From positions 19,298-52,840 of the forward strand of contig CAZTOP010000008.1 of NCBI GenBank assembly GCA_964615145.1: 33,543 nt of DNA. Reading direction: 5' to 3'. Positions within the stretch are counted from its first letter, which is position 1, and every line of letters starts with the position of its first letter. The notes under the pieces were generated by a model. The model saw only the letters and a list, made by a program, of their open reading frames with translations, was not told where the DNA came from and did no database searches. This document shows, piece by piece, positions 3,208-33,543 of the stretch. The stretch is from an uncultured Chitinophagaceae bacterium (GTDB lineage: Bacteria; Bacteroidota; Bacteroidia; Chitinophagales; Chitinophagaceae). A program made the translations under genes and the position numbers.

Positions 3208-3410
3208 ATAATTTTTGATAGGCTGGTTTACAAATATTCCATCATTATTGGTTTTATGTAACCAAACTTTGAGCTGCTTAGTGTTAAAAAAACTACAACA
3301 CTACACCCCTTTCTGAAAAAGAGGCATTGTTTGCCAGACTGAGTTTGTCTAAAGATAATAAAAGCCACACTTACAAAATGAACCACTCCGTAACATTTAA
3401 TGATAATAAA

Positions 3411-3450
3411 TAAAAAGTCCCTAATATTATTAAAAATATCAAGGACTTTA
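3411..3450 (-). terminator. Possible rho-independent terminator for the minus-strand gene at 3485..4114
   Basis: Stem aaagtcc/ggacttt with a large (about 22 nt) AT loop. The minus-strand read continues into a T-rich tract. Confidence 0.35.
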
Positions 3451-3484
3451 TTTGCCTAACAATACCCACCCTGCATAAAACAAA

Positions 3485-4114
3485 CTAATTGCTTACGTAT
3501 TTAGTTATTGGTGCAGCCCACACTAAATCTTCATTATCTCTGCCTTTATGAGCAGCACTAAACACATAAGCCACACCCGCAGGCAAACCTTTAATAACAA
3601 CACTATGCCCATTCACTGGTTTCAATGTCCACAAGTTAATATCACTTGAAGCATTGGTAGCTGGTGTGTAAGCAAACACAGTACCGTGATCGGTTACTGG
3701 CGACTTATCTACCGACACATTCATACTGCCATTATTGCCATTTTCGACCCTAAGGTTAGCAGGTATAGGTTGTGGCAAATACTTGGGCTGCTCCGACAAA
3801 GGAATGCCACTACTTTGCAGCTTAGCCAAATCTCCATCTGCCTGTTGGTTAACCACTACAGCTACTGCACCAAAACTGTTGAGCAGGGTTTCCCTTGCAG
3901 CATTTTTAGCAGTTACTGCAGCTTTGCCACCAGTAGCTAAAGCAGCTAGACTATCGTGATAGGCATTGCTATCATCTTCAAAGTCTTTGAGTTGATCATC
4001 AACAAAAGTGAAGTTGGCATTGCCCTTTAAACCAGTTACAGCAGCTGCTGCTGCAACATCCAAATCAGCGTCTGTTTTATCGCTGAAATCCGTAATAACT
4101 TTGTACTTACGCAT
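3485..4114 (-). CDS. Hypothetical Ala/Gly/Val-rich protein. It is locally GC-rich and may be a secreted or structural beta-rich domain.
   Basis: 209-aa ORF. It has runs of AAAAAV and GGKAAVTAKNAARE. Its GC content is clearly higher than that of all neighbouring genes. Confidence 0.55.
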   Translation of the reverse strand: MRKYKVITDFSDKTDADLDVAAAAAVTGLKGNANFTFVDDQLKDFEDDSNAYHDSLAALATGGKAAVTAKNAARETLLNSFGAVAVVVNQQADGDLAKLQSSGIPLSEQPKYLPQPIPANLRVENGNNGSMNVSVDKSPVTDHGTVFAYTPATNASSDINLWTLKPVNGHSVVIKGLPAGVAYVFSAAHKGRDNEDLVWAAPITKYVSN

Positions 4115-4295
4115 AAAAATTGTTTTAAAAATGAATTAATTAAAATACCAACCTAAAGCTCTTAAAACATTTTTAAATTGCTATATAACAAAATGTTAAA
4201 AATCAATACATACTATTAAAATAATGGTACTTTTTATAAAATTTAACAGAATTTTTACAGTTTTACTTACAACAGATACTTAATAAGTTATAAGG

Positions 4296-4556
4296 GATAG
4301 CAAAAAAGTTGTAACCAAAATATTTTCCGCTACAGCGGAAATGAAAAAAGTTATAGCCGAAATAAAATCTGCTATAACCGAAAGCAAAAAAGTTATAGGG
4401 GTAATGATTTCCGCTATAGCGGAAATTGAAAAAGGGATAGCAGAATGGGAATTTGGTGTAAGGGAAAGGGGAAAAGGGATAGAAGAAATGAAATCTGTTA
4501 TAGGGGAAAGGGAAAAAGTTGTAAGGGAAAGAGAAAGAGTTATATAGGATAGAACT
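4296..4556. repeat. Array of about 12-13 tandem direct repeats with a 21-bp period and GYTATAGSS/GGGATAGMA palindromic cores
   Basis: Units read off directly: gttgtaacc..., gctacagcg..., gttatagcc..., gctataacc..., gttataggg..., gctatagcg..., gggatagca..., ggtgtaagg..., gggatagaa..., gttataggg..., gttgtaagg..., gttatatagg. The segment ttccgctatagcggaa is a perfect 16-bp palindrome. One frame reads as a heptad-repeat 68-aa ORF (4341..4547). Confidence 0.85.
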
Positions 4557-4624
4557 TTGCAGGCTATGAATTGTAAATACTAGATATAGAAAAACAAAAA
4601 AGTACTAACAAAATTTGTTCAAAT

Positions 4625-4632
4625 TAATTTTG
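4625..4632 (+). promoter_or_regulatory. Candidate Bacteroidetes sigma-A -7 element (TAATTTTG) upstream of the methyltransferase gene. It is followed by direct repeats ttgtccgt/gtccg.
   Basis: TAnnTTTG octamer 39 bp upstream of the ATG at 4671. No clean -33 TTTG was found at canonical spacing. Confidence 0.3.
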
Positions 4633-4670
4633 TCCGTAAGTTTGTCCGTGTCCGCAAAAAAGTACGTAAA

Positions 4671-6896
4671 ATGATTAAAGTAAGATTCTATCTCGACAAA
4701 GCAGATAAAAATAGTTTTTCTCCTATACATCTTCGTGTAACCAAAAATGGTGTGCAAATCAAAGTCGCAACAGGTGAGAAAATAAAAAAGAAAGACTGGG
4801 ACAACACAAATCAATTGGTTAAAGACACAGAGTATAAGCATATATCAATCAATAAGTTTCTCAATTTTTTAAAATCAGAAACTGAGAAGTACATATCATC
4901 AACACCGCATACAAAACATACTGACAAAAAAATAAAAGACAAAATTCAAGAGTTAGTGAACAGTAGAAAAGCAAATACGGATGTTCAAATAGTATGTGAA
5001 GATGGAGCGAAATATGAAACAAAACAATCAATAACATTCGTTGACTTATTTGCAGGTGCAGGTGGATTTAGCGAAGGTTTTTTGCAAGCAGAAACAGATA
5101 TTCGATATTACGATTTTTTGCTAGGAAGCGATATCAATGAAAATTGTGAGCTAACTCACCTTGCACGTTATAATTATCAATTAGGACTTGATGCAGCATT
5201 TATAAGACAAGATATTACAGAACCTGATTTCTTGGATAATTTATTGAAAAAGATTAACTGCAAACAAGTTGATGTTGTCTGTGGAGGACCACCCTGCCAA
5301 AGTTTTAGTTTGGCAGGAAGAAGAAAGAAGTTTGATAAGAAAGATGATTTATTCGCACACTACCTAAAAGTAATTAGGCAGTTAAGACCTAAATATTTTG
5401 TAATGGAAAATGTGAAAGGAATTCTTACCAAAGAAGATGGCAAGATTAAAGAAATGATTTTGCAAGAAATTAGGTCAATAGTTGATTTAAAGGAATTTCA
5501 TCAGCTAATAACATTTGTTGCTCAACTAAAAAAGGTTGAGAAAAAACAACCTTTCATTTTAGATTGTTATACACTAAGATTACAATTTGAAACAGCAACA
5601 GAGAAACAACTCGAAAACTCCAGAGAGACTTATATACAGATTCTTGAAAACAAGTTTAGACTTTTAACGCCAAAAATCGTTGATTACAAAACAAGCAAAA
5701 CAGATAAGAATATAAGTACGATTCGACACGGATTTAATTTGCTTAAACGCAGCAAGGAATTGGCTTACATAAGAAAAAAAGTCATTCTTGAAAAGTCATT
5801 TTGTGATTTAGATAATGATTTTTTTACAGATAGCTTCGATGGATTTTTAACTTCAATAGAAAGTGAATCTATTATTGAAACTATTCATAATGCTTTTACA
5901 AACTTAAAGCCATCAGAAGACTATATTGCTGAAATAAATGACATAATTAAATCACTTGAAATTTATAATTACTCTTTTGATGAGTGTGTGCAAGGGCTAA
6001 AAACATTTGTTGAAAAGGCTAATAGATCAAATGAGTTTAATGAAATATTATCGCATATTAGATTATATAATATTGAACAACCTTTTGTTGCTCTTGCATC
6101 TAACTATGGTGTGCCACAAAATAGAGAAAGAGTTCTATTTATTGGTTGTCGAAAAGACCAAAAACTAATTACTGATGTACCACCTACAGTTACAGACAGA
6201 GAAAAGGTAACAGTTTTTGAAGCCTTATATGATTTGGATTTTGTTGGAAACGATGAAGAAAAGTATCATTACGAGAAAATAGATTTAAAAGCCAAATACA
6301 ATGGTTCAACAGAAAAGATGAAAGCCTTAATACAGAAAAGAAATATTGATGGAAAACCGAATAATAGTAAAGGTTTAACTTATGCAGACTGGAGCAAAAA
6401 AGGAAGATTAAATGAAAGATTTGCAAATGCAAAGAACCCCTTTTATGTAAGGAATTTTGAAGATTTAGAAAATAACCTTTCACACATTGTTGCTCCATTA
6501 CACAATCATAAAACAAGTAAACAAAACGACGATGTTGTAAAACGTTTAAATGTCATTTTAAATACTGGTGATTATGATTTAGCAAAAAAAGAATTGAAAG
6601 CAATCGGTTTAGATTCAGAAAAAAGAAGTTACAATGTATTAAAAGCAGATTCGCAAAGCCCAACAGTAATGACAATTCCAGATGATTATATTCACTTTTC
6701 AAGTCCAAGGGCTTTAACAGTTAGAGAAATGGCAAGATTGCAGTCATTTGATGATTCATTTGTATTTCAAGGTAAACGCTCAACTGGTGGCAATAAACGT
6801 AAATTTGAAGTACCGCAATTTACATTGGTTGGTAATGCTGTTCCTCCCTTAATGGCAAGGGCTGTGGCACTAGAAATATTAAAAAATATAGATTAG
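4671..6896 (+). CDS. DNA (cytosine-5)-methyltransferase. It has an N-terminal integrase-type Arm DNA-binding domain and a long insertion between motifs VI and VIII.
   Basis: Motif I FVDLFAGAGGFSEGF (aa 122-135), motif IV GGPPCQSFS (aa 205-213), motif VI FVMENVKG (aa 243-250), motif VIII QNRERVLFIG (aa 483-492), motif X LVGNAVPPLMA near the C-terminus. The N-terminal 55 aa (VRFYLDKADKNSFSPIHLRVTKNGVQIKVATGEKIKKKDWDNTNQLVK) match the Arm-DBD pattern of Bacteroidetes tyrosine integrases. Confidence 0.9.
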   Translation: MIKVRFYLDKADKNSFSPIHLRVTKNGVQIKVATGEKIKKKDWDNTNQLVKDTEYKHISINKFLNFLKSETEKYISSTPHTKHTDKKIKDKIQELVNSRKANTDVQIVCEDGAKYETKQSITFVDLFAGAGGFSEGFLQAETDIRYYDFLLGSDINENCELTHLARYNYQLGLDAAFIRQDITEPDFLDNLLKKINCKQVDVVCGGPPCQSFSLAGRRKKFDKKDDLFAHYLKVIRQLRPKYFVMENVKGILTKEDGKIKEMILQEIRSIVDLKEFHQLITFVAQLKKVEKKQPFILDCYTLRLQFETATEKQLENSRETYIQILENKFRLLTPKIVDYKTSKTDKNISTIRHGFNLLKRSKELAYIRKKVILEKSFCDLDNDFFTDSFDGFLTSIESESIIETIHNAFTNLKPSEDYIAEINDIIKSLEIYNYSFDECVQGLKTFVEKANRSNEFNEILSHIRLYNIEQPFVALASNYGVPQNRERVLFIGCRKDQKLITDVPPTVTDREKVTVFEALYDLDFVGNDEEKYHYEKIDLKAKYNGSTEKMKALIQKRNIDGKPNNSKGLTYADWSKKGRLNERFANAKNPFYVRNFEDLENNLSHIVAPLHNHKTSKQNDDVVKRLNVILNTGDYDLAKKELKAIGLDSEKRSYNVLKADSQSPTVMTIPDDYIHFSSPRALTVREMARLQSFDDSFVFQGKRSTGGNKRKFEVPQFTLVGNAVPPLMARAVALEILKNID

Positions 6897-6902
6897 TTTT
6901 TA

Positions 6903-8087
6903 ATGAGACAGCTATCCGAAATAGAAATCAGTCGTATAAAATTACTAACAGAAAACTCTGTAGAATTAACTTTAATTGAACCAACTGCAACAGGTTTGGA
7001 AAAGTCAATTATGGATGCCACAGGTTCTGTCCGTACTTATTTAAAATCAAAATCTATTCACGACTTTGAAAATCAAAAGCAAGGACAAGAATATAAAATA
7101 CAAATAAAATCGCATTTAATTTTTGAAGATGCACTAGTAAATTCTATCGCTTCATTATATCGCCCTAATACAAAAAAAGGAGACCCAAGAATTTGGTTTA
7201 AAGGATTAACAAGTTTTGCGAAAGCAAATGATATACTAGCAATTGTTGAATATCAAAAAGTGCTGTATGTTTTAAATATTACACAACTTGATTTGAAGAA
7301 ATTATTAGAAGCAAGAATCAACAACCCATTTAGTGAACTTATTAATGAAATCAATCAAAACACGAATGCTATTGCTGAAGAATTATTATTTAAACTAAAA
7401 GAGATTTCTGCAAGAGGCCTCGTTCCTGCTATGTTAAAAGCAGATACAGCAATAGGAAGAACACTCGAAACTTTACTAAACATTGATATTAATTCATCAA
7501 AAAAACCAGATTACAAGGGAATAGAATTAAAATCGTATCGTGATAAAAAGGGTAATAGAAAAAATCTATTCGCTCAAGTACCTGATTGGAATTTAAGTAA
7601 ATTTAGTAGTTCGGCTGAAATATTAAATGCATTTGGTTACAGTAGAGGTGAAGATTTTAAGTTGTATTGCACTGTATCAACTTTAGTGAGAAATTCACAA
7701 GGATTAAAACTAAAATTGAATGCTGAAATAAATCATTTAGTGGAAAATTCCGATAAATCAACAATTGGAGACTTTGTTGTTTGGGGCTTGGAAACTCTGC
7801 ATAAACGACTGCTTGAAAAACATAATGAAACATTTTGGATAGCTGCTGATTCAAAGATTGTTGATGGCAAAGAATATTTTCAGTATAAAAAAGTTGAACA
7901 CACCAAAAAGCCAATTGTTTCTCAGTTTGATATTCTATTGGAACAAGGAATTATTACATTAGATCACTTAATAAAAAGGAAACCGAGTGGAAGTGTTGTA
8001 GAGAAAGGACCACTTTTTAAAATAAAACCAAATGCTCTGGATTTATTATTTCCTCCTAGTCAATCATATTCATTAATTCAAAAATAA
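6903..8087 (+). CDS. Putative Type II restriction endonuclease (PD-(D/E)xK), cognate to the upstream methyltransferase
   Basis: It starts 6 bp after the methyltransferase stop on the same strand. It has a 'GRTLETLL...KKPDYKGIELKSYRD' segment (aa 185-213) that fits a G-x-x-L-E ... PD-x4-E-x-K nuclease core of the kind seen in MutH/Sau3AI-like and EcoRII/NgoMIV-like enzymes. This resemblance is from memory and unverified. The N-terminal roughly 130 aa could be a separate DNA-recognition domain. Confidence 0.5.
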   Translation: MRQLSEIEISRIKLLTENSVELTLIEPTATGLEKSIMDATGSVRTYLKSKSIHDFENQKQGQEYKIQIKSHLIFEDALVNSIASLYRPNTKKGDPRIWFKGLTSFAKANDILAIVEYQKVLYVLNITQLDLKKLLEARINNPFSELINEINQNTNAIAEELLFKLKEISARGLVPAMLKADTAIGRTLETLLNIDINSSKKPDYKGIELKSYRDKKGNRKNLFAQVPDWNLSKFSSSAEILNAFGYSRGEDFKLYCTVSTLVRNSQGLKLKLNAEINHLVENSDKSTIGDFVVWGLETLHKRLLEKHNETFWIAADSKIVDGKEYFQYKKVEHTKKPIVSQFDILLEQGIITLDHLIKRKPSGSVVEKGPLFKIKPNALDLLFPPSQSYSLIQK

Positions 8088-8099
8088 AACTAAAACAAA

Positions 8100-8339
8100 A
8101 TGACACAGTTTAACTCACAAGTAAGCAGCCTTTCACCCAATGGTTCATTTGTTTTATCTCAATCAGATAATCTTGTTTGTAGTGTTGAAAGAAGTAGTGA
8201 TGGCAAAAAACTTCGTTTTGTAAGAACCTTTGCCAATGGCAGTTTTGTAGTGGTTAAAGAAACAGATTACACATTGTATCATTACATTAAACCGAATGAA
8301 CTAAATAGTATTAAAAATACTAAGGCTGTGTTTAGATAA
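8100..8339 (+). CDS. Small hypothetical protein (79 aa), immediately after the R-M pair
   Basis: ATG ORF 12 bp after the endonuclease stop. No motif recognised. Confidence 0.35.
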   Translation: MTQFNSQVSSLSPNGSFVLSQSDNLVCSVERSSDGKKLRFVRTFANGSFVVVKETDYTLYHYIKPNELNSIKNTKAVFR

Positions 8340-8486
8340 TACTTGATTGTATACTTACTACTTTTTAAAATTCCATACTAAGCCCAAAAAGATTTTTGAA
8401 CCCTTCAAGGTCTATTGCATTAACTTGTTAGACACTACTAAAAAATATATAAAATTAAAAAAAACTTCGAGGCATCATTTCCACCA

Positions 8487-30570: not shown

Positions 30571-33543
30571 ATGAAAAAAAAGTTTACTCAATTTTTTTTG
30601 CTTTTATTTACCCTGATTGTTTTTAGTAATGTTTTAAAAGCACAAAACTTGCTGTATAATGGCGATTTTGAATATGGAGGTAGTGGAAACGGATTTATTT
30701 CAGATGACCCAAGTTATTTTTATTTAACAAACCCAAATGGTATTTCGTTCGCCGGCAATTGGGCTATTGTCAATAATCCACAAGCTGTAAATACTAATTT
30801 CATTTCAGGAACAGACCATAGTGGTACAGGTAATATGATGGTTGTAGATGCTACTACAAATGGTGGTGCAAAACGTTTTTGGAAAGCAGGAAACAATGGC
30901 AATGGTATTATTGGTTTTATTACTGGTACATCTTATACATTTAGTTATTGGATTAAATCAGTTTCAAACGATCCTTCAAGAGCAAATATTGGCATTTCGT
31001 TTAATAACGTTTCAAATGTTGTGCTAGCAAGTGGCAATGCTACAGCACCGCTGGCAAGTGATGGATGGCAGCAAGTAAAATACACTTTTACTGCCAATGG
31101 AAATACTGTTAATATAGAGTTATATGATAATAATACAGATGCTATTGGAAATGATTTTGCGATTGATGATATTGAATTATATGGTCCACCACAACCGTTT
31201 TCATTTTCATATTCAAGTGTAAATCCTACTTGCTCAAATGTAGCAGATGGTTCAATTGTGGCTTATGGTACAGGAGGTACTGCACCATATTTATATAGTT
31301 TTGATGGAGGTGCTTTTACAAGCACAAATGTTCTAAATGGTTTAACAACTTCAAACCACACTATCACAGTTCAAGATGCCGCTTTAAATACATTAACAAG
31401 TCCAGTAATTCATATTATTTCACCAACAGATGTTTTAAATGCAACTACGAATAAAGATTCTATTTGTTCTGGTCATTCTGCAACTTTAAATGCTACAGGT
31501 GGTGGCAATAATGGTTACACTTGGGTTGCTACACCAGCAGATCCAACCCTTTCTGTAAATGCAACAAGCCCGGTTGTTAGCCCTTTAGTTCCTACTATCT
31601 ACGTAGTATCTACTTCCAGCACTTATGCCACCAATCTTGTTTTTAATGGCGATTTTGAATTAGGCAATAATGGTTTTTCTACTGATTATGTTTTTAAAAC
31701 TTCAAATACTTCTGGTGCACAAAGAACTTATGGTATTACTGATAGTGCCAGTAAATTTTATTCTGCATTTTCAAATTGTGGAGATCATACAACTGGCAGT
31801 GGAAAAATGTTTGTTTGTGATGGTTCAACTAATCCTACCAACAGAATATGGAGTCAAACAGTTCCGGTAAAGCCTGGCAGTACGTATACATTTACGTATT
31901 GGATTCAATCTGTAACATCTCCTAGTCCTGCCCAAATTGAAACAAGAATAAATAATGTTGTTTTACCAGCAGGAACCAATGCAAATCCTTACACAGCACC
32001 AGCTACAAATACTTGTAACAATTGGCAGAAAGTGTCTTACTCCTGGACTGCAGGTGTTGGAGTAACTTCTGCTGACTTGTCAATTTATGATAAAAATTTC
32101 GTTGACATTGGAAACGATTTTGCATTAGATGATATTTCGTTTATCACCTTAACAACAACCTGCACTTTGGTTGATAGTGTTAAAGTATTTGTAACTACAA
32201 CAACATCGTCCATTACAGATTTTAGTTATATACCCAATGCTATTTGTGTGAGTAGTACAACAAATCCAACATTAAATACAGTACCCAGCTTTACAACCGG
32301 AGGCACTTATACCGCCACACCAGCGGGATTGAAAATAGATTCTTTAACTGGTGCAATTGATGTTGCTAATAGTTTACCAAATACTTATAATGTTACTTAT
32401 TTTGCTCCAATTGTGGGCTGTAGATTAAGTGGTAGTAGTAGCACAACAATTACTATTAGACCATTGGTGGCAACACCAACAGCTAGTGTTACAGTGCAAC
32501 CAACTTGTACCACACCAACAGGAACTATTGTTGTTAGTAACCCTCTAGCGACTAATTATTATTTTAGTGTAGATTCTGGATTAAATTATCAAAGCAGTGC
32601 AACATTTACAGGACTTGCACCAAATAGCACCCATTACATTGTTGTAAAAGATACCAATGCTGGTGGATGTATTTCTGATACTATTAGTCTTACAATAAAT
32701 CCTGTCACTCCGCCTCCACCAACACCAACTGGCAGTGTAAGTTTTCAACCAACTTGTGCCGTTGCCACAGGAACAATCATTGTATCAAGTCCACATAGTA
32801 CAAACTATGTTTATTCTATTAATGGAACTACTTATCAAGCTGATACAACATTTGCTGGACTTACAGCTAATACAACATATCCTGTTATAGTTAAAGATGT
32901 AACTACAGGTTGTATTTCATCTGCATTGAATTTAACAGTTTATCCTTTTATACCTGTAATTGCAACAACAAACACTCAAACATTGAGTAGTTGTAAGGAT
33001 ATTATTTATAACAGTATTACTTATTCTTCATCAACGATACTAAAAGACACTGTAAAATCTTTTCAAGGTTGTGATAGTGTTTACAATGTTGTTAACATTA
33101 ATATTAATCCTATTACTCCAGCAACAAACACACAAACATTCAGCAGTTGTAAGGATATTTTTTATAACAGCATCACTTATTCTTCATCAACCATACTAAA
33201 AGACACCATAAAATCTTTCCAAGGTTGTGATAGTATTTACAATATTGTCAACATTAATATCAATCCTATTACTCCAACAACAAACACTCAAACATTGAGT
33301 AGTTGTAAGGATATTATTTACAACAGCATCAGTTATTCTTCATCAACGATACTAAAAGACACTGTAAAATCTTTCCAAGGTTGTGATAGTATTTACAATA
33401 TTATAAACATCAATATCAATCCAATTACTACTACAACTAATACTCAAACATTCAGCAGTTGTAAGGATATTGTTTATAATGGTATGGCTTATTCTTCATC
33501 AACGATACTAAAAGACACTGTAAAATCTTTCCAAGGTTGTGAT
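30571..33543 (+). CDS. Large secreted surface protein, 3'-partial. It has two CBM_4_9-like modules, SprB-type repeats, and tandem 51-53-aa Cys-containing repeats. It is probably a T9SS adhesin.
   Basis: The ATG is at 30571. I read the frame through to the window end without a stop codon. Signal peptide MKKKFTQFFLLLFTLIVFSNVLKAQ. Two modules run from N[LV]x[YF]NGDFE to GNDFAxDDI. SprB-like repeats (PTCSNVADGSIVAYGTGGTAPYLYSF, VQPTCTTPTGTIVVS...). The track ORFs 30720..30902(-) and 31670..31870(+) lie inside it and are artefacts. Confidence 0.8.
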   Translation, partial: MKKKFTQFFLLLFTLIVFSNVLKAQNLLYNGDFEYGGSGNGFISDDPSYFYLTNPNGISFAGNWAIVNNPQAVNTNFISGTDHSGTGNMMVVDATTNGGAKRFWKAGNNGNGIIGFITGTSYTFSYWIKSVSNDPSRANIGISFNNVSNVVLASGNATAPLASDGWQQVKYTFTANGNTVNIELYDNNTDAIGNDFAIDDIELYGPPQPFSFSYSSVNPTCSNVADGSIVAYGTGGTAPYLYSFDGGAFTSTNVLNGLTTSNHTITVQDAALNTLTSPVIHIISPTDVLNATTNKDSICSGHSATLNATGGGNNGYTWVATPADPTLSVNATSPVVSPLVPTIYVVSTSSTYATNLVFNGDFELGNNGFSTDYVFKTSNTSGAQRTYGITDSASKFYSAFSNCGDHTTGSGKMFVCDGSTNPTNRIWSQTVPVKPGSTYTFTYWIQSVTSPSPAQIETRINNVVLPAGTNANPYTAPATNTCNNWQKVSYSWTAGVGVTSADLSIYDKNFVDIGNDFALDDISFITLTTTCTLVDSVKVFVTTTTSSITDFSYIPNAICVSSTTNPTLNTVPSFTTGGTYTATPAGLKIDSLTGAIDVANSLPNTYNVTYFAPIVGCRLSGSSSTTITIRPLVATPTASVTVQPTCTTPTGTIVVSNPLATNYYFSVDSGLNYQSSATFTGLAPNSTHYIVVKDTNAGGCISDTISLTINPVTPPPPTPTGSVSFQPTCAVATGTIIVSSPHSTNYVYSINGTTYQADTTFAGLTANTTYPVIVKDVTTGCISSALNLTVYPFIPVIATTNTQTLSSCKDIIYNSITYSSSTILKDTVKSFQGCDSVYNVVNININPITPATNTQTFSSCKDIFYNSITYSSSTILKDTIKSFQGCDSIYNIVNININPITPTTNTQTLSSCKDIIYNSISYSSSTILKDTVKSFQGCDSIYNIINININPITTTTNTQTFSSCKDIVYNGMAYSSSTILKDTVKSFQGCD
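32962..33543 (+). repeat. Near-identical tandem coding repeats (159/156/153 bp, at least 3.6 copies) that run off the window end
   Basis: Repeat unit T(T)NTQT[LF]SSCKDI[IF]YNSI[TS]YSSSTILKDT[VI]KSFQGCDS[VI]YN[IV][VI]NININPITP. DNA identity between copies is roughly 90% or higher. Unit starts are at 32962, 33121, 33277 and 33430. Confidence 0.9.

What the first reader, a model, noticed from the sequence alone, without database searches (positions are those of the whole stretch)
4296..6896. C5-cytosine methyltransferase fused to an integrase-type Arm DNA-binding domain, placed directly behind about 12 tandem 21-bp direct repeats
The first roughly 55 aa of the methyltransferase fit the N-terminal Arm-binding domain of CTnDOT/Bacteroidetes tyrosine integrases (V.FYL.K....SPI.LRVT.NG....ATG..I....W....Q.VK). 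That domain binds direct-repeat 'arm' sites. Within 120-380 bp upstream of the start codon sits an array of direct repeats at exactly two-helical-turn (21 bp) spacing with GCTATAGC-like cores. Some methyltransferases with N-terminal HTH extensions (M.EcoRII, M.SsoII) autoregulate by binding an operator in their own promoter. Here the extension is an Arm-type domain and the candidate operator is an iteron array. I am not aware of this arrangement as a described R-M control mode. It could also reflect domain capture from a mobile element.
Basis: partly seen in the sequence, partly recalled or inferred. Interest (0 to 1): 0.82.

Follow-up and report, generated by a model that had tools for sequence, protein, structure and literature searches.

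The report
Methylase carrying a borrowed integrase arm
A restriction-modification gene cassette found in hundreds of Bacteroidota species has a methylase that carries the DNA-binding "arm" domain and promoter repeats of an integrase gene, probably to shut off its own expression, while the 21-bp repeat array next to it is unrelated flanking DNA.

Summary
Window 4671-6896 encodes a 741-aa C5-cytosine methyltransferase whose residues 9-76 match the integrase Arm-DNA-bind_5 domain (PF17293) above Pfam's cut-off. About 13 units of a 21-bp tandem repeat lie at 4284-4556.

The proposed link between them does not hold. The methylase, an MvaI/BcnI-family nuclease and a 79-aa ORF form a 3.76-kb cassette (4611-8373), found at different chromosomal sites in more than 320 Bacteroidota species. 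The array lies 55 nt outside it. Only about 6-7% of orthologous loci have a 21/42-bp array within 1 kb upstream. Their unit sequences are unrelated, and such arrays are no commoner there than in other non-coding flank DNA.

What is conserved, in 159 of 161 loci, is a roughly 40-nt element just before the start codon (window 4632-4668). It holds four direct GTCCGYA repeats spaced 12, 6 and 12 bp and overlaps a predicted Bacteroidetes promoter. It is as constrained as second codon positions.

Genuine integrases with this Arm domain carry the same arrangement upstream of their own genes, two of them with GTCCG cores. My best reading: an integrase 5' end (promoter, arm sites, Arm domain) was fused to a dcm gene, giving SsoII/EcoRII-like autorepression with a different DNA-binding domain. 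DNA binding was not tested.

The parts
4284..4556 (.). 21-bp tandem array, about 13 units with a 42-bp super-period. It is flanking host DNA outside the R-M cassette and is not conserved in orthologous loci. Function unknown.
   Evidence: array; cassette homology starts at 4611-4620; absent or unrelated in orthologous loci, not enriched; not consistently coding
4611..8373 (+). Conserved mobile R-M cassette: promoter/operator, methylase gene, nuclease gene and a 79-aa ORF.
   Evidence: blastn against the closest relatives L173 and L174 (87% nt identity over window 4611/4620-8373, in a different genomic context)
4615..4617 (+). Predicted -33 'TTG' of a Bacteroidetes sigma-ABfr-type promoter, 19 nt upstream of the -7 box.
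   Evidence: The column is 85-92% conserved in 79-80 loci. Consensus taken from PMC7366714. The promoter is predicted, not mapped.
4637..4644 (+). Predicted -7 box TAAGTTTG (TAnnTTTG), formed at the junction of repeats 1 and 2.
   Evidence: one of only two TAnnTTTG matches on either strand in 4100-4700, and the only one with a TTG 19 nt upstream..
4632..4668 (+). Candidate operator: four direct repeats, GTCCGTA (4632-4638), GTCCGTG (4644-4650), GTCCGCA (4650-4656) and GTACGTA (4662-4668), spaced 12, 6 and 12 bp and ending 2 nt before the ATG.
   Evidence: Present in 159 of 161 loci of two subfamilies. Mean pairwise identity is 0.91, against 0.38 at 4-fold degenerate sites. The same architecture lies upstream of genuine integrase genes.
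4671..6896 (+). Methylase gene: a 741-aa C5-cytosine DNA methyltransferase with an N-terminal Arm domain.
4695..4898 (+). Arm-DNA-bind_5 (PF17293) domain, aa 9-76. The AlphaFold2 model has three long beta-strands (aa 2-39) followed by helices 55-77 and 85-103.
5031..6893 (+). C5-methyltransferase catalytic region (aa 121-741) with motifs DLFAGAGG, GGPPCQSFS, MENVKG, QNRERV and GNAVPP. It carries a roughly 210-aa insertion between motifs VI and VIII.
6903..8087 (+). Nuclease gene: a 394-aa MvaI/BcnI-family restriction endonuclease (PF15515 at aa 164-383) with an unassigned N-terminal region of about 160 aa. It starts 6 nt after the methylase stop codon, so the two genes are probably one operon.
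8100..8339 (+). 79-aa ORF of unknown function, kept in the cassette in the closest relatives.

Best explanation
Window 4611-8373 is a horizontally spread Type II R-M cassette: methylase, MvaI/BcnI-family nuclease and a 79-aa ORF.

The 5' end of the methylase gene derives from the 5' end of a Bacteroidota tyrosine-integrase gene. It kept three things: the promoter, the promoter-proximal arm-type direct repeats, and the coding region of the Arm DNA-binding domain.

Inferred mechanism. The Arm domain of the methylase binds the four GTCCGYA direct repeats at 4632-4668. These overlap the -7 box, the predicted transcription start and the short leader of the methylase-nuclease operon. As methylase accumulates it blocks its own promoter. 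This is negative autoregulation of the whole operon. The logic is that of M.SsoII and M.EcoRII, which use an N-terminal helix-turn-helix (HTH), and of integrases that repress their own promoter through arm sites.

The 21-bp array at 4284-4556 belongs to the host flank. It is one of many unrelated 21-bp minisatellites in Bacteroidota non-coding DNA and has no specific relation to the methylase.

Shown: the fusion, its spread, the cassette boundaries, the conservation and position of the repeats, and the shared architecture with integrase genes. Inferred: that the Arm domain binds these repeats, that the promoter is where predicted, and that binding represses.
For: (1) Arm homology. Pfam match above cut-off. 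An exhaustive profile search reaches integrases with PF17293+PF13102+PF00589. tblastn of integrase N-termini hits the methylase N-terminus in every locus at 26-43% identity. The alignment is near gap-free.

(2) Spread. 321 confirmed stretches in a one-genome-per-species collection. The best 80 are 74-91% identical and span Chitinophagaceae, Flavobacteriales, Saprospiraceae, Cytophagales, Sphingobacteriales and others. A sister subfamily (55% identical overall, about 35% in the Arm region) gave 186 stretches in metagenomes.

(3) Element. GTCCGTAnnnTTGTCCG lies within 90 nt of the ATG in 80 of 81 family-1 loci, and the first two repeats are invariant. TGTCCGYA occurs 199 times at -80..0, always in forward orientation, against 34 times elsewhere in 879 kb on both strands. 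The sister subfamily carries the same element. Mean pairwise identity is 0.91 for the element, against 0.38 at 4-fold sites and 0.90 at second codon positions.

(4) The element overlaps TTG-N19-TAAGTTTG. This fits the sigma-ABfr consensus of TAnnTTTG at -7 and TTTG near -33 (PMC7366714).

(5) Integrase genes with this Arm type carry 11-12-bp-spaced direct-repeat pairs within about 70 nt of their ATG, often with an inverted third copy. Examples are TGTCCGT x2 (L176), GTGTCCGCAA x2 (L179), ATCGGCAGTAAA x2 (L177), AGGCAGTAAA x2 (L180), GTGTACGA x2 (L182) and GTGTACGCAA x2 (L264), that is 6 of 8 loci looked up. A viral clade has TTGGGTGTA x2. By the strict criterion 10 of 17 distinct upstream regions have a pair, against 0.9 expected in random windows. 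The repeat core is identical within a locus but differs between clades, so the binding partner should be encoded in cis, not a sigma factor or a shared host factor.

(6) Precedents. Integrase promoters that overlap attL arm sites are negatively autoregulated (Panis et al. 2010, PMC2951348). The N-terminal region of M.SsoII regulates transcription of its own R-M system (PMC3978073 and PMC6100179).

(7) Array excluded. It lies outside the cassette. It is absent or unrelated in orthologous loci and not enriched there.
Against: - No binding, transcription-start or expression data exist. The promoter is a consensus match only.
- The repeats stay unchanged although the Arm domains of the two subfamilies are only about 35% identical. 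So there is no covariation inside the methylase family.
- Overall Arm identity does not track the repeat core among integrases. The methylase Arm is no closer to the GTCCG-type integrases (33-38%) than to the GGCAG-type (39-44%).
- The AlphaFold2 model (pLDDT 83) found no significant match to any solved structure, including known arm-binding domains.
- Part of the repeat unit (TTTG...TA) is itself promoter consensus, so some conservation could reflect promoter function alone.
- A methylase that represses a co-directional methylase-nuclease operon also lowers nuclease expression. This differs from the SsoII wiring.
Confidence: 0.6

Rival explanations
1. The Arm domain binds the 21-bp array at 4284-4556 as an iteron-like operator and so controls the R-M system.
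For: The array is real, lies 115-387 nt upstream of the ATG and has two-helical-turn phasing. The three closest cassette relatives, in independent genomic contexts, each have some 21/42-bp array within 0.3-1.3 kb upstream.
Against: The array lies outside the conserved cassette. About 93% of orthologous loci have none within 1 kb. Where arrays exist, the units are unrelated although the Arm domains are 60-90% identical. Density is the same as in other non-ORF flank DNA (P=0.28). No GTCCG-like motif occurs in the array.
Confidence: 0.04
2. The GTCCGYA element is only a strong promoter and leader that travels with the cassette. The Arm domain does something else, for example tethering the methylase to DNA, binding arm sites of integrative elements elsewhere, or mediating protein contacts. 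It could also be a tolerated relic.
For: The TTTG and TA parts of the repeat unit are promoter consensus. There is no covariation between Arm sequence and repeats inside the methylase family. No binding data exist.
Against: The GTCCG cores are not part of the sigma-ABfr consensus. They are nevertheless invariant and repeated four times, extending past the predicted start site. Integrase genes show the same layout with other cores that are repeated identically within each locus. The Arm domain keeps 34 invariant columns across the N-terminal fragments aligned, which argues against a relic.
Confidence: 0.2
3. The Arm domain and the arm-type repeats serve mobility. The cassette is a non-autonomous element whose left end is recognised by resident GTCCG-type integrases, or whose methylase joins an intasome. 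That would explain its spread to many chromosomal sites.
For: The cassette sits in different contexts even at 87% nt identity. Its left boundary coincides with the repeats. Integrases with GTCCG repeat pairs exist.
Against: No integrase gene lies within 3-6 kb on either side in any of the 161 loci. No GTCCG cluster occurs at the right end or anywhere else. No terminal direct or inverted repeats or shared core sequence appear at the junctions. The cassette is absent from the phage, plasmid and viral-contig collections searched.
Confidence: 0.1
4. The 21-bp array encodes a small heptad-repeat protein (the frame is open over 4287-4547, with an ATG at 4341) and is not a DNA site.
For: One + strand frame is open across the whole array, and 21 bp equals 7 codons. 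Gene callers call an 82-aa ORF over the arrays of L173 and L174.
Against: Arrays in L013, L023 and L072 are closed in all six frames. Open frames never extend more than a few codons beyond an array. No Bacteroidetes promoter motif lies upstream.
Confidence: 0.03

Closest known systems
Methylase-autoregulated Type II R-M systems (M.SsoII, M.EcoRII, M.MspI, M.ScrFIA type)
   Same: A C5-cytosine methyltransferase with an extra N-terminal DNA-binding region of roughly 70-120 aa. A candidate operator sits in its own promoter. The partner nucleases belong to CCNGG/CCWGG-type families: MvaI/BcnI here, and an EcoRII-C-domain nuclease in locus L020. The control logic is the same, with the modification enzyme also acting as repressor (PMC3978073 and PMC6100179).
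   Different: The DNA-binding domain is a beta-sheet Arm domain of integrase origin, not an HTH. The candidate operator is four direct repeats, not an inverted repeat. The genes form a co-directional methylase-nuclease operon, not a divergent pair. No Type II methylase model in PADLOC covers the N-terminal domain.
Negatively autoregulated integrase genes whose promoter overlaps attL arm-type sites (IntS of KplE1; Panis et al. 2010, PMC2951348)
   Same: An Arm-type N-terminal domain is encoded directly downstream of promoter-proximal direct repeats, and the protein is predicted to repress its own promoter. Bacteroidota integrases with PF17293 show the same 11-12-bp-spaced pairs.
   Different: Here the core-binding and catalytic recombinase domains have been replaced by a methyltransferase. 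No att core, recombination directionality factor or integrase lies nearby.
IntDOT/CTnDOT-type Bacteroidetes tyrosine integrases (PF17293 + PF13102 + PF00589)
   Same: The N-terminal domain is homologous, at 26-39% identity over about 90 aa.
   Different: Only the Arm domain is present. It is not a recombinase.
C-protein (controller) regulated R-M systems
   Same: A conserved operator just upstream of the first gene of the system, probably serving to time or limit expression after transfer.
   Different: No separate C gene or HTH protein is found in the cassette. The operator consists of direct repeats, not C-box inverted repeats.
Plasmid iterons (17-22-bp direct repeats bound by Rep proteins)
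   Same: The 21-bp array resembles iterons in unit length and in its tandem, helically phased layout.
   Different: No rep gene is present and the location is chromosomal. The unit sequences are unrelated between loci, and such arrays are scattered through Bacteroidota non-coding DNA.

Membership tests
Arm-DNA-bind_5 (PF17293) integrase N-terminal domain | Match to the family HMM above the curated gathering score | tested here: met
   34.2 bits in the whole protein and 38.3 bits (E=2e-9) for aa 1-120, against a cut-off of 22.6
Arm-DNA-bind_5 (PF17293) integrase N-terminal domain | Reciprocal homology to N-termini of genuine tyrosine integrases | tested here: met
   A profile of methylase N-termini retrieves 380-445-aa proteins. 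Those checked carry PF17293+PF13102+PF00589. tblastn gives 26-43% identity. The alignment A3 is near gap-free.
Arm-DNA-bind_5 (PF17293) integrase N-terminal domain | Three-stranded beta-sheet plus helix fold of arm-binding domains (lambda Int and Tn916 Int N-domains) | tested here: inconclusive
Arm-DNA-bind_5 (PF17293) integrase N-terminal domain | Binds direct-repeat arm-type DNA sites | not testable with these tools
   Indirect only: conserved GTCCGYA direct repeats next to the gene and analogous pairs next to integrase genes.
C5-cytosine DNA methyltransferase (PF00145 / TIGR00675) | Conserved motifs I (FxGxG), IV (PCQ), VI (ENV), VIII (QxRxR) and X (GNAVPP), plus an HMM match | tested here: met
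   DLFAGAGG, GGPPCQSFS, MENVKG, QNRERV and GNAVPP read. PF00145 E=1.9e-51. TIGR00675 scores 153 bits against a cut-off of 100.65.
Type II R-M system with an MvaI/BcnI-family nuclease | A methyltransferase adjacent to a restriction endonuclease of a known Type II family | tested here: met
   PF15515 E=1e-74 in the ORF that starts 6 nt after the methylase stop. PADLOC gives MTase_II plus REase_II. The pair is adjacent in most orthologous loci.
Type II R-M system with an MvaI/BcnI-family nuclease | Matching recognition specificity and activity of the two enzymes | not testable with these tools
   CCWGG is only mildly under-represented in the window (observed/expected 0.61, 19 sites). This is not decisive.
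Methylase-autoregulated R-M (SsoII/EcoRII type) | N-terminal DNA-binding extension on the C5 methyltransferase | tested here: met
   aa 1-120 precede motif I. All Type II methylase models start matching at aa 78-124.
Methylase-autoregulated R-M (SsoII/EcoRII type) | The extension is a helix-turn-helix that binds an inverted-repeat operator | tested here: not met
   The domain is PF17293, a beta-sheet Arm type. The conserved element consists of direct repeats.
Methylase-autoregulated R-M (SsoII/EcoRII type) | The methylase represses its own promoter | not testable with these tools
   Inferred from the overlap of the conserved repeats with the predicted -7 box and start site.
   About 10 of 152 loci have any 21/42-bp array within 1 kb. 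The units are unrelated. Arrays are not enriched there. This array lies outside the cassette.
Integrative mobile element with a tyrosine recombinase | A recombinase catalytic domain (PF00589) in the protein or encoded nearby, and att-like repeats at both ends | tested here: not met
   No PF00589 in the methylase. The only integrase-like hits in the 161 loci (3-6 kb of flank on each side) are the methylase N-termini themselves. No terminal repeats.
C-protein controlled R-M | A small HTH controller gene with C-boxes | tested here: not met
   The only extra ORF (79 aa, 8100-8339) has no significant family hit. No inverted-repeat boxes lie upstream of the methylase gene.

The most novel reading that the evidence does not exclude
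The methylase shares its operator type (GTCCG direct repeats at 12-bp spacing) with one group of Bacteroidota integrases. The R-M cassette and integrative elements could therefore be cross-wired in two ways. The Arm domain of the methylase could bind the arm sites and int promoters of such elements, repressing or blocking their integration or excision. This would be a defence function beyond restriction. Conversely, their integrases could silence the R-M operon or mobilise the cassette in trans.
Probability: 0.12. Interest if true: 0.8.

Novelty: new variant of a known kind. Interest (0 to 1): 0.6.

Why it matters
If the Arm domain does bind the GTCCGYA repeats, this would be a further solution to a known problem: how an R-M system limits and times its own expression after moving to a new host. 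Unlike the known cases, it would be built from an integrase part and not from an HTH or a C protein.

It would also be a clear example of a promoter, an operator and a DNA-binding domain being captured together as one 5' cassette and grafted onto an unrelated enzyme.

The system is abundant, found in more than 320 species across Bacteroidota at about 75-90% protein identity. It therefore affects gene flow and genetic tractability in that phylum.

A compact self-repressing promoter-plus-domain module would be a useful part for Bacteroidetes synthetic biology.

The comparison also gives a testable general prediction for PF17293 integrases: that they autoregulate through 11-12-bp-spaced repeat pairs at their promoters.

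Tried and rejected
- Array as coding sequence. Rejected. Three other arrays are closed in all six frames, and open frames stop at the array edges.
- Array as a known RNA or tRNA-linked site. No Rfam hit in 4000-4800 and no tRNA in the window.
- Array enrichment upstream of the methylase gene. Not significant once normalised to non-ORF DNA.
- Covariation of Arm sequence and operator, using the sister subfamily. The operator is unchanged, so the test was uninformative.
- Overall Arm identity against repeat core among integrases. No clean relation.
- Fold match to solved arm-binding domains. None significant. A single-sequence model was poor. The afdb50 library was not available. A sequence search of the PDB gave only spurious ankyrin hits.
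- Phage or plasmid carriage. No close relative and no Arm-bearing methylase in either collection. Exact-motif hits in viral contigs are chance matches inside coding DNA.
- An integrase nearby, or terminal repeats of the cassette. None.
- Target-site avoidance as a way to infer specificity. CCWGG observed/expected is 0.61, which is inconclusive.
- The sigma-70 promoter scan. Not relevant to Bacteroidetes and not above shuffled expectation.
- The arm-site consensus of CTnDOT. The paper (PMC1855790) is not held.
- Word-index searches with the N-terminus returned only fragments of the same family.


Full report
OBSERVATION

The ORF at 4671-6896 (+) encodes 741 aa. Pfam finds C5-methylase PF00145 (E=1.9e-51) and, at aa 9-76, the integrase Arm-DNA-bind_5 domain PF17293. 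That match scores 34.2 bits in the whole protein and 38.3 bits (E=2e-9) for aa 1-120 alone, against a curated cut-off of 22.6. NCBIfam and PADLOC agree on a Type II C5 methylase. Their models start matching at about aa 78-124, so the N-terminal roughly 120 aa are an extra domain.

The next ORF (6903-8087) starts 6 nt after the methylase stop. It is an MvaI/BcnI-family restriction endonuclease (PF15515, E=1e-74).

The tandem array is also real. Tandem Repeats Finder reports periods of 21, 42 and 84 bp between 4289 and 4544. Thirteen units lie in register over 4284-4556. The lag-21 self-match is 0.54-0.59, z about 6.6. An independent short-read assembly is identical to the window up to 4432 and breaks inside the array.

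IS THE N-TERMINUS REALLY AN INTEGRASE ARM DOMAIN?

I built a profile from N-terminal fragments of the family and scored it against 1.8 billion representative proteins. It gave 157 hits at E<=0.001. Many are proteins of 380-445 aa. Every one of those I checked carries PF17293 + PF13102 + PF00589, so they are genuine Bacteroidota tyrosine integrases.

Integrase N-termini hit the methylase N-terminus by tblastn in every locus, at 26-43% identity. A 19-sequence alignment is almost gap-free over about 90 residues, with the shared pattern FYLDK...PI.L...K..TGEK...W....Q.VK....IN..L..L.

HOW WIDESPREAD IS THE FUSION, AND WHAT UNIT DOES IT BELONG TO?

The protein database returned 7,196 relatives. The best 120 cover the full length at 77-100% identity, and most are exactly 741 aa. 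In a collection with one genome per species, 321 stretches encode a relative. The best 80 are 74-91% identical and come from Chitinophagaceae, Flavobacteriales, Saprospiraceae, Cytophagales, Sphingobacteriales, Bacteroidales and others.

The upstream 209-aa gene of the window is found in none of these loci. The nuclease follows the methylase in most of them.

There are variants. Some loci have a convergent 313-aa ORF, an EcoRII-C-domain nuclease, or a convergent MvaI/BcnI-family nuclease in place of the usual one. Others have two GmrSD-like genes inserted between the methylase and nuclease genes.

The closest relatives (92% protein identity, 87% nt identity) sit next to RNase HII, which is a different context from the window. 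Their homology with the window runs from 4611/4620 to 8373. The unit is therefore a 3.76-kb cassette: promoter region, methylase gene, nuclease gene and a 79-aa ORF. The 21-bp array ends 55 nt to the left of it.

I found no integrase gene within 3-6 kb on either side in any of 161 loci. There are no terminal repeats at the junctions. There is no close relative on plasmids, phages or viral contigs.

THE 21-BP ARRAY IS NOT THE OPERATOR

Of 152 loci with enough upstream DNA, about 10 have a 21/42-bp periodic array within 1 kb. These are the window, L013, L038, L041, L054, L072, L126/L133, L173 and L174/L175.

Their units are unrelated:
- AAAGTTATAGCCGAAATAAAA in the window
- AACATCGATTCGATGATATGG in L013
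- TGCGGAAGGCTATTATAGAAA in L041
- ATCGGTTCAACTGCAGAGATT in L072
- ACTACAGnnnnnTTTGCATAC in L173

The Arm domains of these loci are nevertheless 60-90% identical to each other.

Similar 21-bp arrays also lie elsewhere in the flanks, from -4.2 kb to +7 kb. Period 21 is the commonest class of tandem repeat in these loci. Normalised to non-ORF DNA, the 1 kb upstream of the methylase gene has 6 arrays where 4.4 are expected (P=0.28).

The arrays are not consistently coding. L013, L023 and L072 are closed in all six frames, and open frames stop at the array edges. No Rfam family and no tRNA is involved.

I conclude that the array is host-flank minisatellite DNA. What such arrays do in Bacteroidota remains unexplained. 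It is curious that the three closest cassette contexts each have one nearby.

WHAT IS CONSERVED INSTEAD

Lining up the 130 nt before the ATG of 81 loci shows no similarity beyond about -60. Downstream of that point the sequence is nearly invariant: TTTGTCCGTAAATTTGTCCGTGTCCGTAAAAATGTCCGCAAT-ATG.

GTCCGTAnnnTTGTCCG is present in 80 of 81 loci. The first two GTCCG repeats are 100% conserved, and the ATG lies 39 nt after the first repeat in 58 loci.

TGTCCGYA occurs 199 times at -80..0, always in forward orientation and at -40, -28, -22 and -10. It occurs only 34 times elsewhere in 879 kb on both strands.

In 55 loci with the canonical spacing, mean pairwise identity is 0.91 for the element (0.96 for the first two repeats). 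This compares with 0.38 at 4-fold degenerate sites, 0.52 at third codon positions, 0.90 at second positions and 0.37 further upstream. Choosing loci by the motif inflates the element figure somewhat.

A sister subfamily was fetched from metagenomes (80 loci). It is 55% identical overall and about 35% identical in the Arm region. It has the same element. Taking both subfamilies together, only L025 and L121 lack the motif.

In the window the four repeats are GTCCGTA 4632-4638, GTCCGTG 4644-4650, GTCCGCA 4650-4656 and GTACGTA 4662-4668.

The element overlaps TTG (4615-4617)-N19-TAAGTTTG (4637-4644). This is one of only two TAnnTTTG matches on either strand of the whole intergenic region, and the only one with a TTG at that spacing. 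The primary sigma factor of Bacteroidetes recognises TAnnTTTG at -7 and TTTG near -33 (PMC7366714).

The -7 box is formed at the junction of repeats 1 and 2. Repeats 2-4 cover the predicted start site and a leader of about 20 nt.

THE LINK TO INTEGRASE GENES

I looked up the DNA around integrases retrieved by the Arm profile. Six of eight loci have a pair of direct repeats spaced 11-12 bp within about 70 nt of the integrase ATG:
- L176 (P0192): AGTGTCCGTATATTTGTCCGT, the same GTCCGT pair with an embedded TAnnTTTG, plus an inverted copy CCGGACA next to the ATG
- L179 (P0207): GTGTCCGCAA x2
- L177 (P0191): ATCGGCAGTAAA x2
- L180 (P0210): AGGCAGTAAA x2
- L182 (P0201): GTGTACGA x2
- L264 (P0219): GTGTACGCAA x2, plus an inverted copy

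A clade of integrases from viral contigs has TTGGGTGTA-TA-TTTGGGTGTA plus an inverted CACCCAA before the ATG. By my strict criterion, 10 of 17 distinct upstream regions have a pair. That compares with 0.9 expected for random windows of the same loci and 0.5 for shuffles. Several more are missed only because the repeat contains just two letter types.

So the layout 'two helically phased direct repeats flanking the -7 box, directly upstream of an Arm-domain coding region' is a property of this integrase family. The core is identical within a locus and differs between clades. This points to the protein encoded in cis as the binding partner, not to a sigma factor or a shared host factor.

Promoters of integrase genes that overlap attL arm-type sites are known to be repressed by the integrase itself, and this arrangement is widespread (Panis et al. 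2010, PMC2951348).

MECHANISM PROPOSED

An integrase 5' end (promoter, arm-type repeats and Arm-coding region) was fused to a dcm-type gene. The methylase then binds its own promoter through the Arm domain and represses the methylase-nuclease operon.

This is functionally analogous to M.SsoII and M.EcoRII. Their N-terminal region regulates transcription of their own system (PMC3978073 and PMC6100179).

The steps that are shown are the homology, the architecture, the conservation and the cassette boundaries. The steps that are inferred are binding, promoter position and the direction of regulation.

Several points weaken the case:
- There is no covariation inside the methylase family.
- Overall Arm identity does not track the repeat core.
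- There is no structural match to solved arm-binding domains.
- Part of the repeat unit is itself promoter consensus.

I put the combined explanation at about 0.6. The fusion itself is near certain. Exclusion of the array is about 0.9, binding of the repeats about 0.7, and repression about 0.55.

COMPARISON AND NOVELTY

The system works like the methylase-autoregulated R-M systems, but it fails their defining structural features: an HTH domain and an inverted-repeat operator. It is not a C-protein system and not an integrative element.

Databases label these proteins only 'DNA cytosine methyltransferase'. Full-text searches found no paper that links an Arm DNA-binding domain or PF17293 to a methyltransferase. 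I class it as a new variant of a known kind of control.

The enzyme's specificity is unknown. The partner nuclease families suggest a CCNGG/CCWGG-type site. CCWGG is only mildly depleted in the window, with observed/expected 0.61.

Noticed in passing
L011 13018-13377; L069 10011-10188; L023 4059-4303; L001 4696-4837; L013 913-1195; L173 3529-3777; L174 about 3400-3660; L126 2221-2624; window 4284-4556: Tandem arrays with a strict 21-bp period (or 42/63 bp) and unrelated unit sequences are the commonest tandem-repeat class in non-coding DNA around these Bacteroidota loci, at roughly one per 8-11 kb of non-ORF DNA. Many units contain a short palindrome. They are not consistently coding. I know of no explanation for the preferred 21-bp period.
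   Followed up: partly
L176 1464-1500; L179 1166-1200; L177 1431-1460; L180 about 205-235; L182 1166-1190; L264 1140-1185; L185-L258, about -45 to -1 of the int ATG: Bacteroidota integrase genes with a PF17293 Arm domain carry 11-12-bp-spaced direct-repeat pairs, often with an inverted third copy, right at their predicted promoter. The cores are specific to each clade: GTCCG, GGCAGTAAA, GTACG, TTGGGTGTA. This suggests general autoregulation of this integrase family through arm-type sites.
   Followed up: partly
P0148 (1044-nt metagenome contig); L069 8463-9281: One protein fuses the first 70 or so residues of this Arm domain to an Mrr_cat nuclease C-terminus. In L069 a full Mrr gene lies just downstream of the methylase gene. 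This is probably a deletion or an assembly chimera, but it shows that the promoter-Arm module can end up on other restriction genes.
   Followed up: no
window 6903-7390 (nuclease aa 1-160); L030 3942-5468 (C-terminal part): The N-terminal region of about 160 aa of the MvaI/BcnI-family nuclease has no family assignment. A similar stretch (…TATGL.KS.MDAT..VR…) forms the C-terminus of the 508-aa GmrSD_N-like protein inserted between the methylase and nuclease genes in L030. It may be a shared DNA-recognition or effector domain.
   Followed up: no
window 5480-6110 (methylase aa about 270-480): The methylase has an insertion of about 210 aa between motif VI (ENV) and motif VIII (QNRER). This is not the usual position for a target-recognition domain. 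The insertion is conserved in both subfamilies and matches no family.
   Followed up: no
L007, L010, L028, L038, L040, L054 (two genes of about 380 and 358 aa); L030, L042, L076 (about 200 and 367-508 aa), inserted just after the methylase gene, in most of these loci between the methylase and nuclease genes: In a subset of loci a pair of genes, one with a GmrSD_N (DUF262-like) domain, follows the methylase gene directly. In most of these loci the pair sits between the methylase and nuclease genes, which suggests accretion of a modification-dependent nuclease module into the operon.
   Followed up: partly
L001-L160, contig ends: Many metagenome contigs stop 50-600 nt upstream of the methylase start. 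This fits assemblies breaking at the boundary of a cassette shared by several genomes in one sample. Some gene callers extend the ORF 27-30 codons upstream through the GTCCG repeats, giving products of 768-771 aa.
   Followed up: no
window 32963-33543: A 156-bp tandem repeat with 3.7 copies and 89% matches runs off the right end of the window.
   Followed up: no
L042, L053, L055 (record titles): A few loci come from metagenome-assembled genomes labelled Vulcanococcus (a cyanobacterium), Actinomycetes or Verrucomicrobiota. They still carry a cassette about 76% identical with the Bacteroidetes-type promoter. Mis-binning is likelier than transfer between phyla.
   Followed up: no
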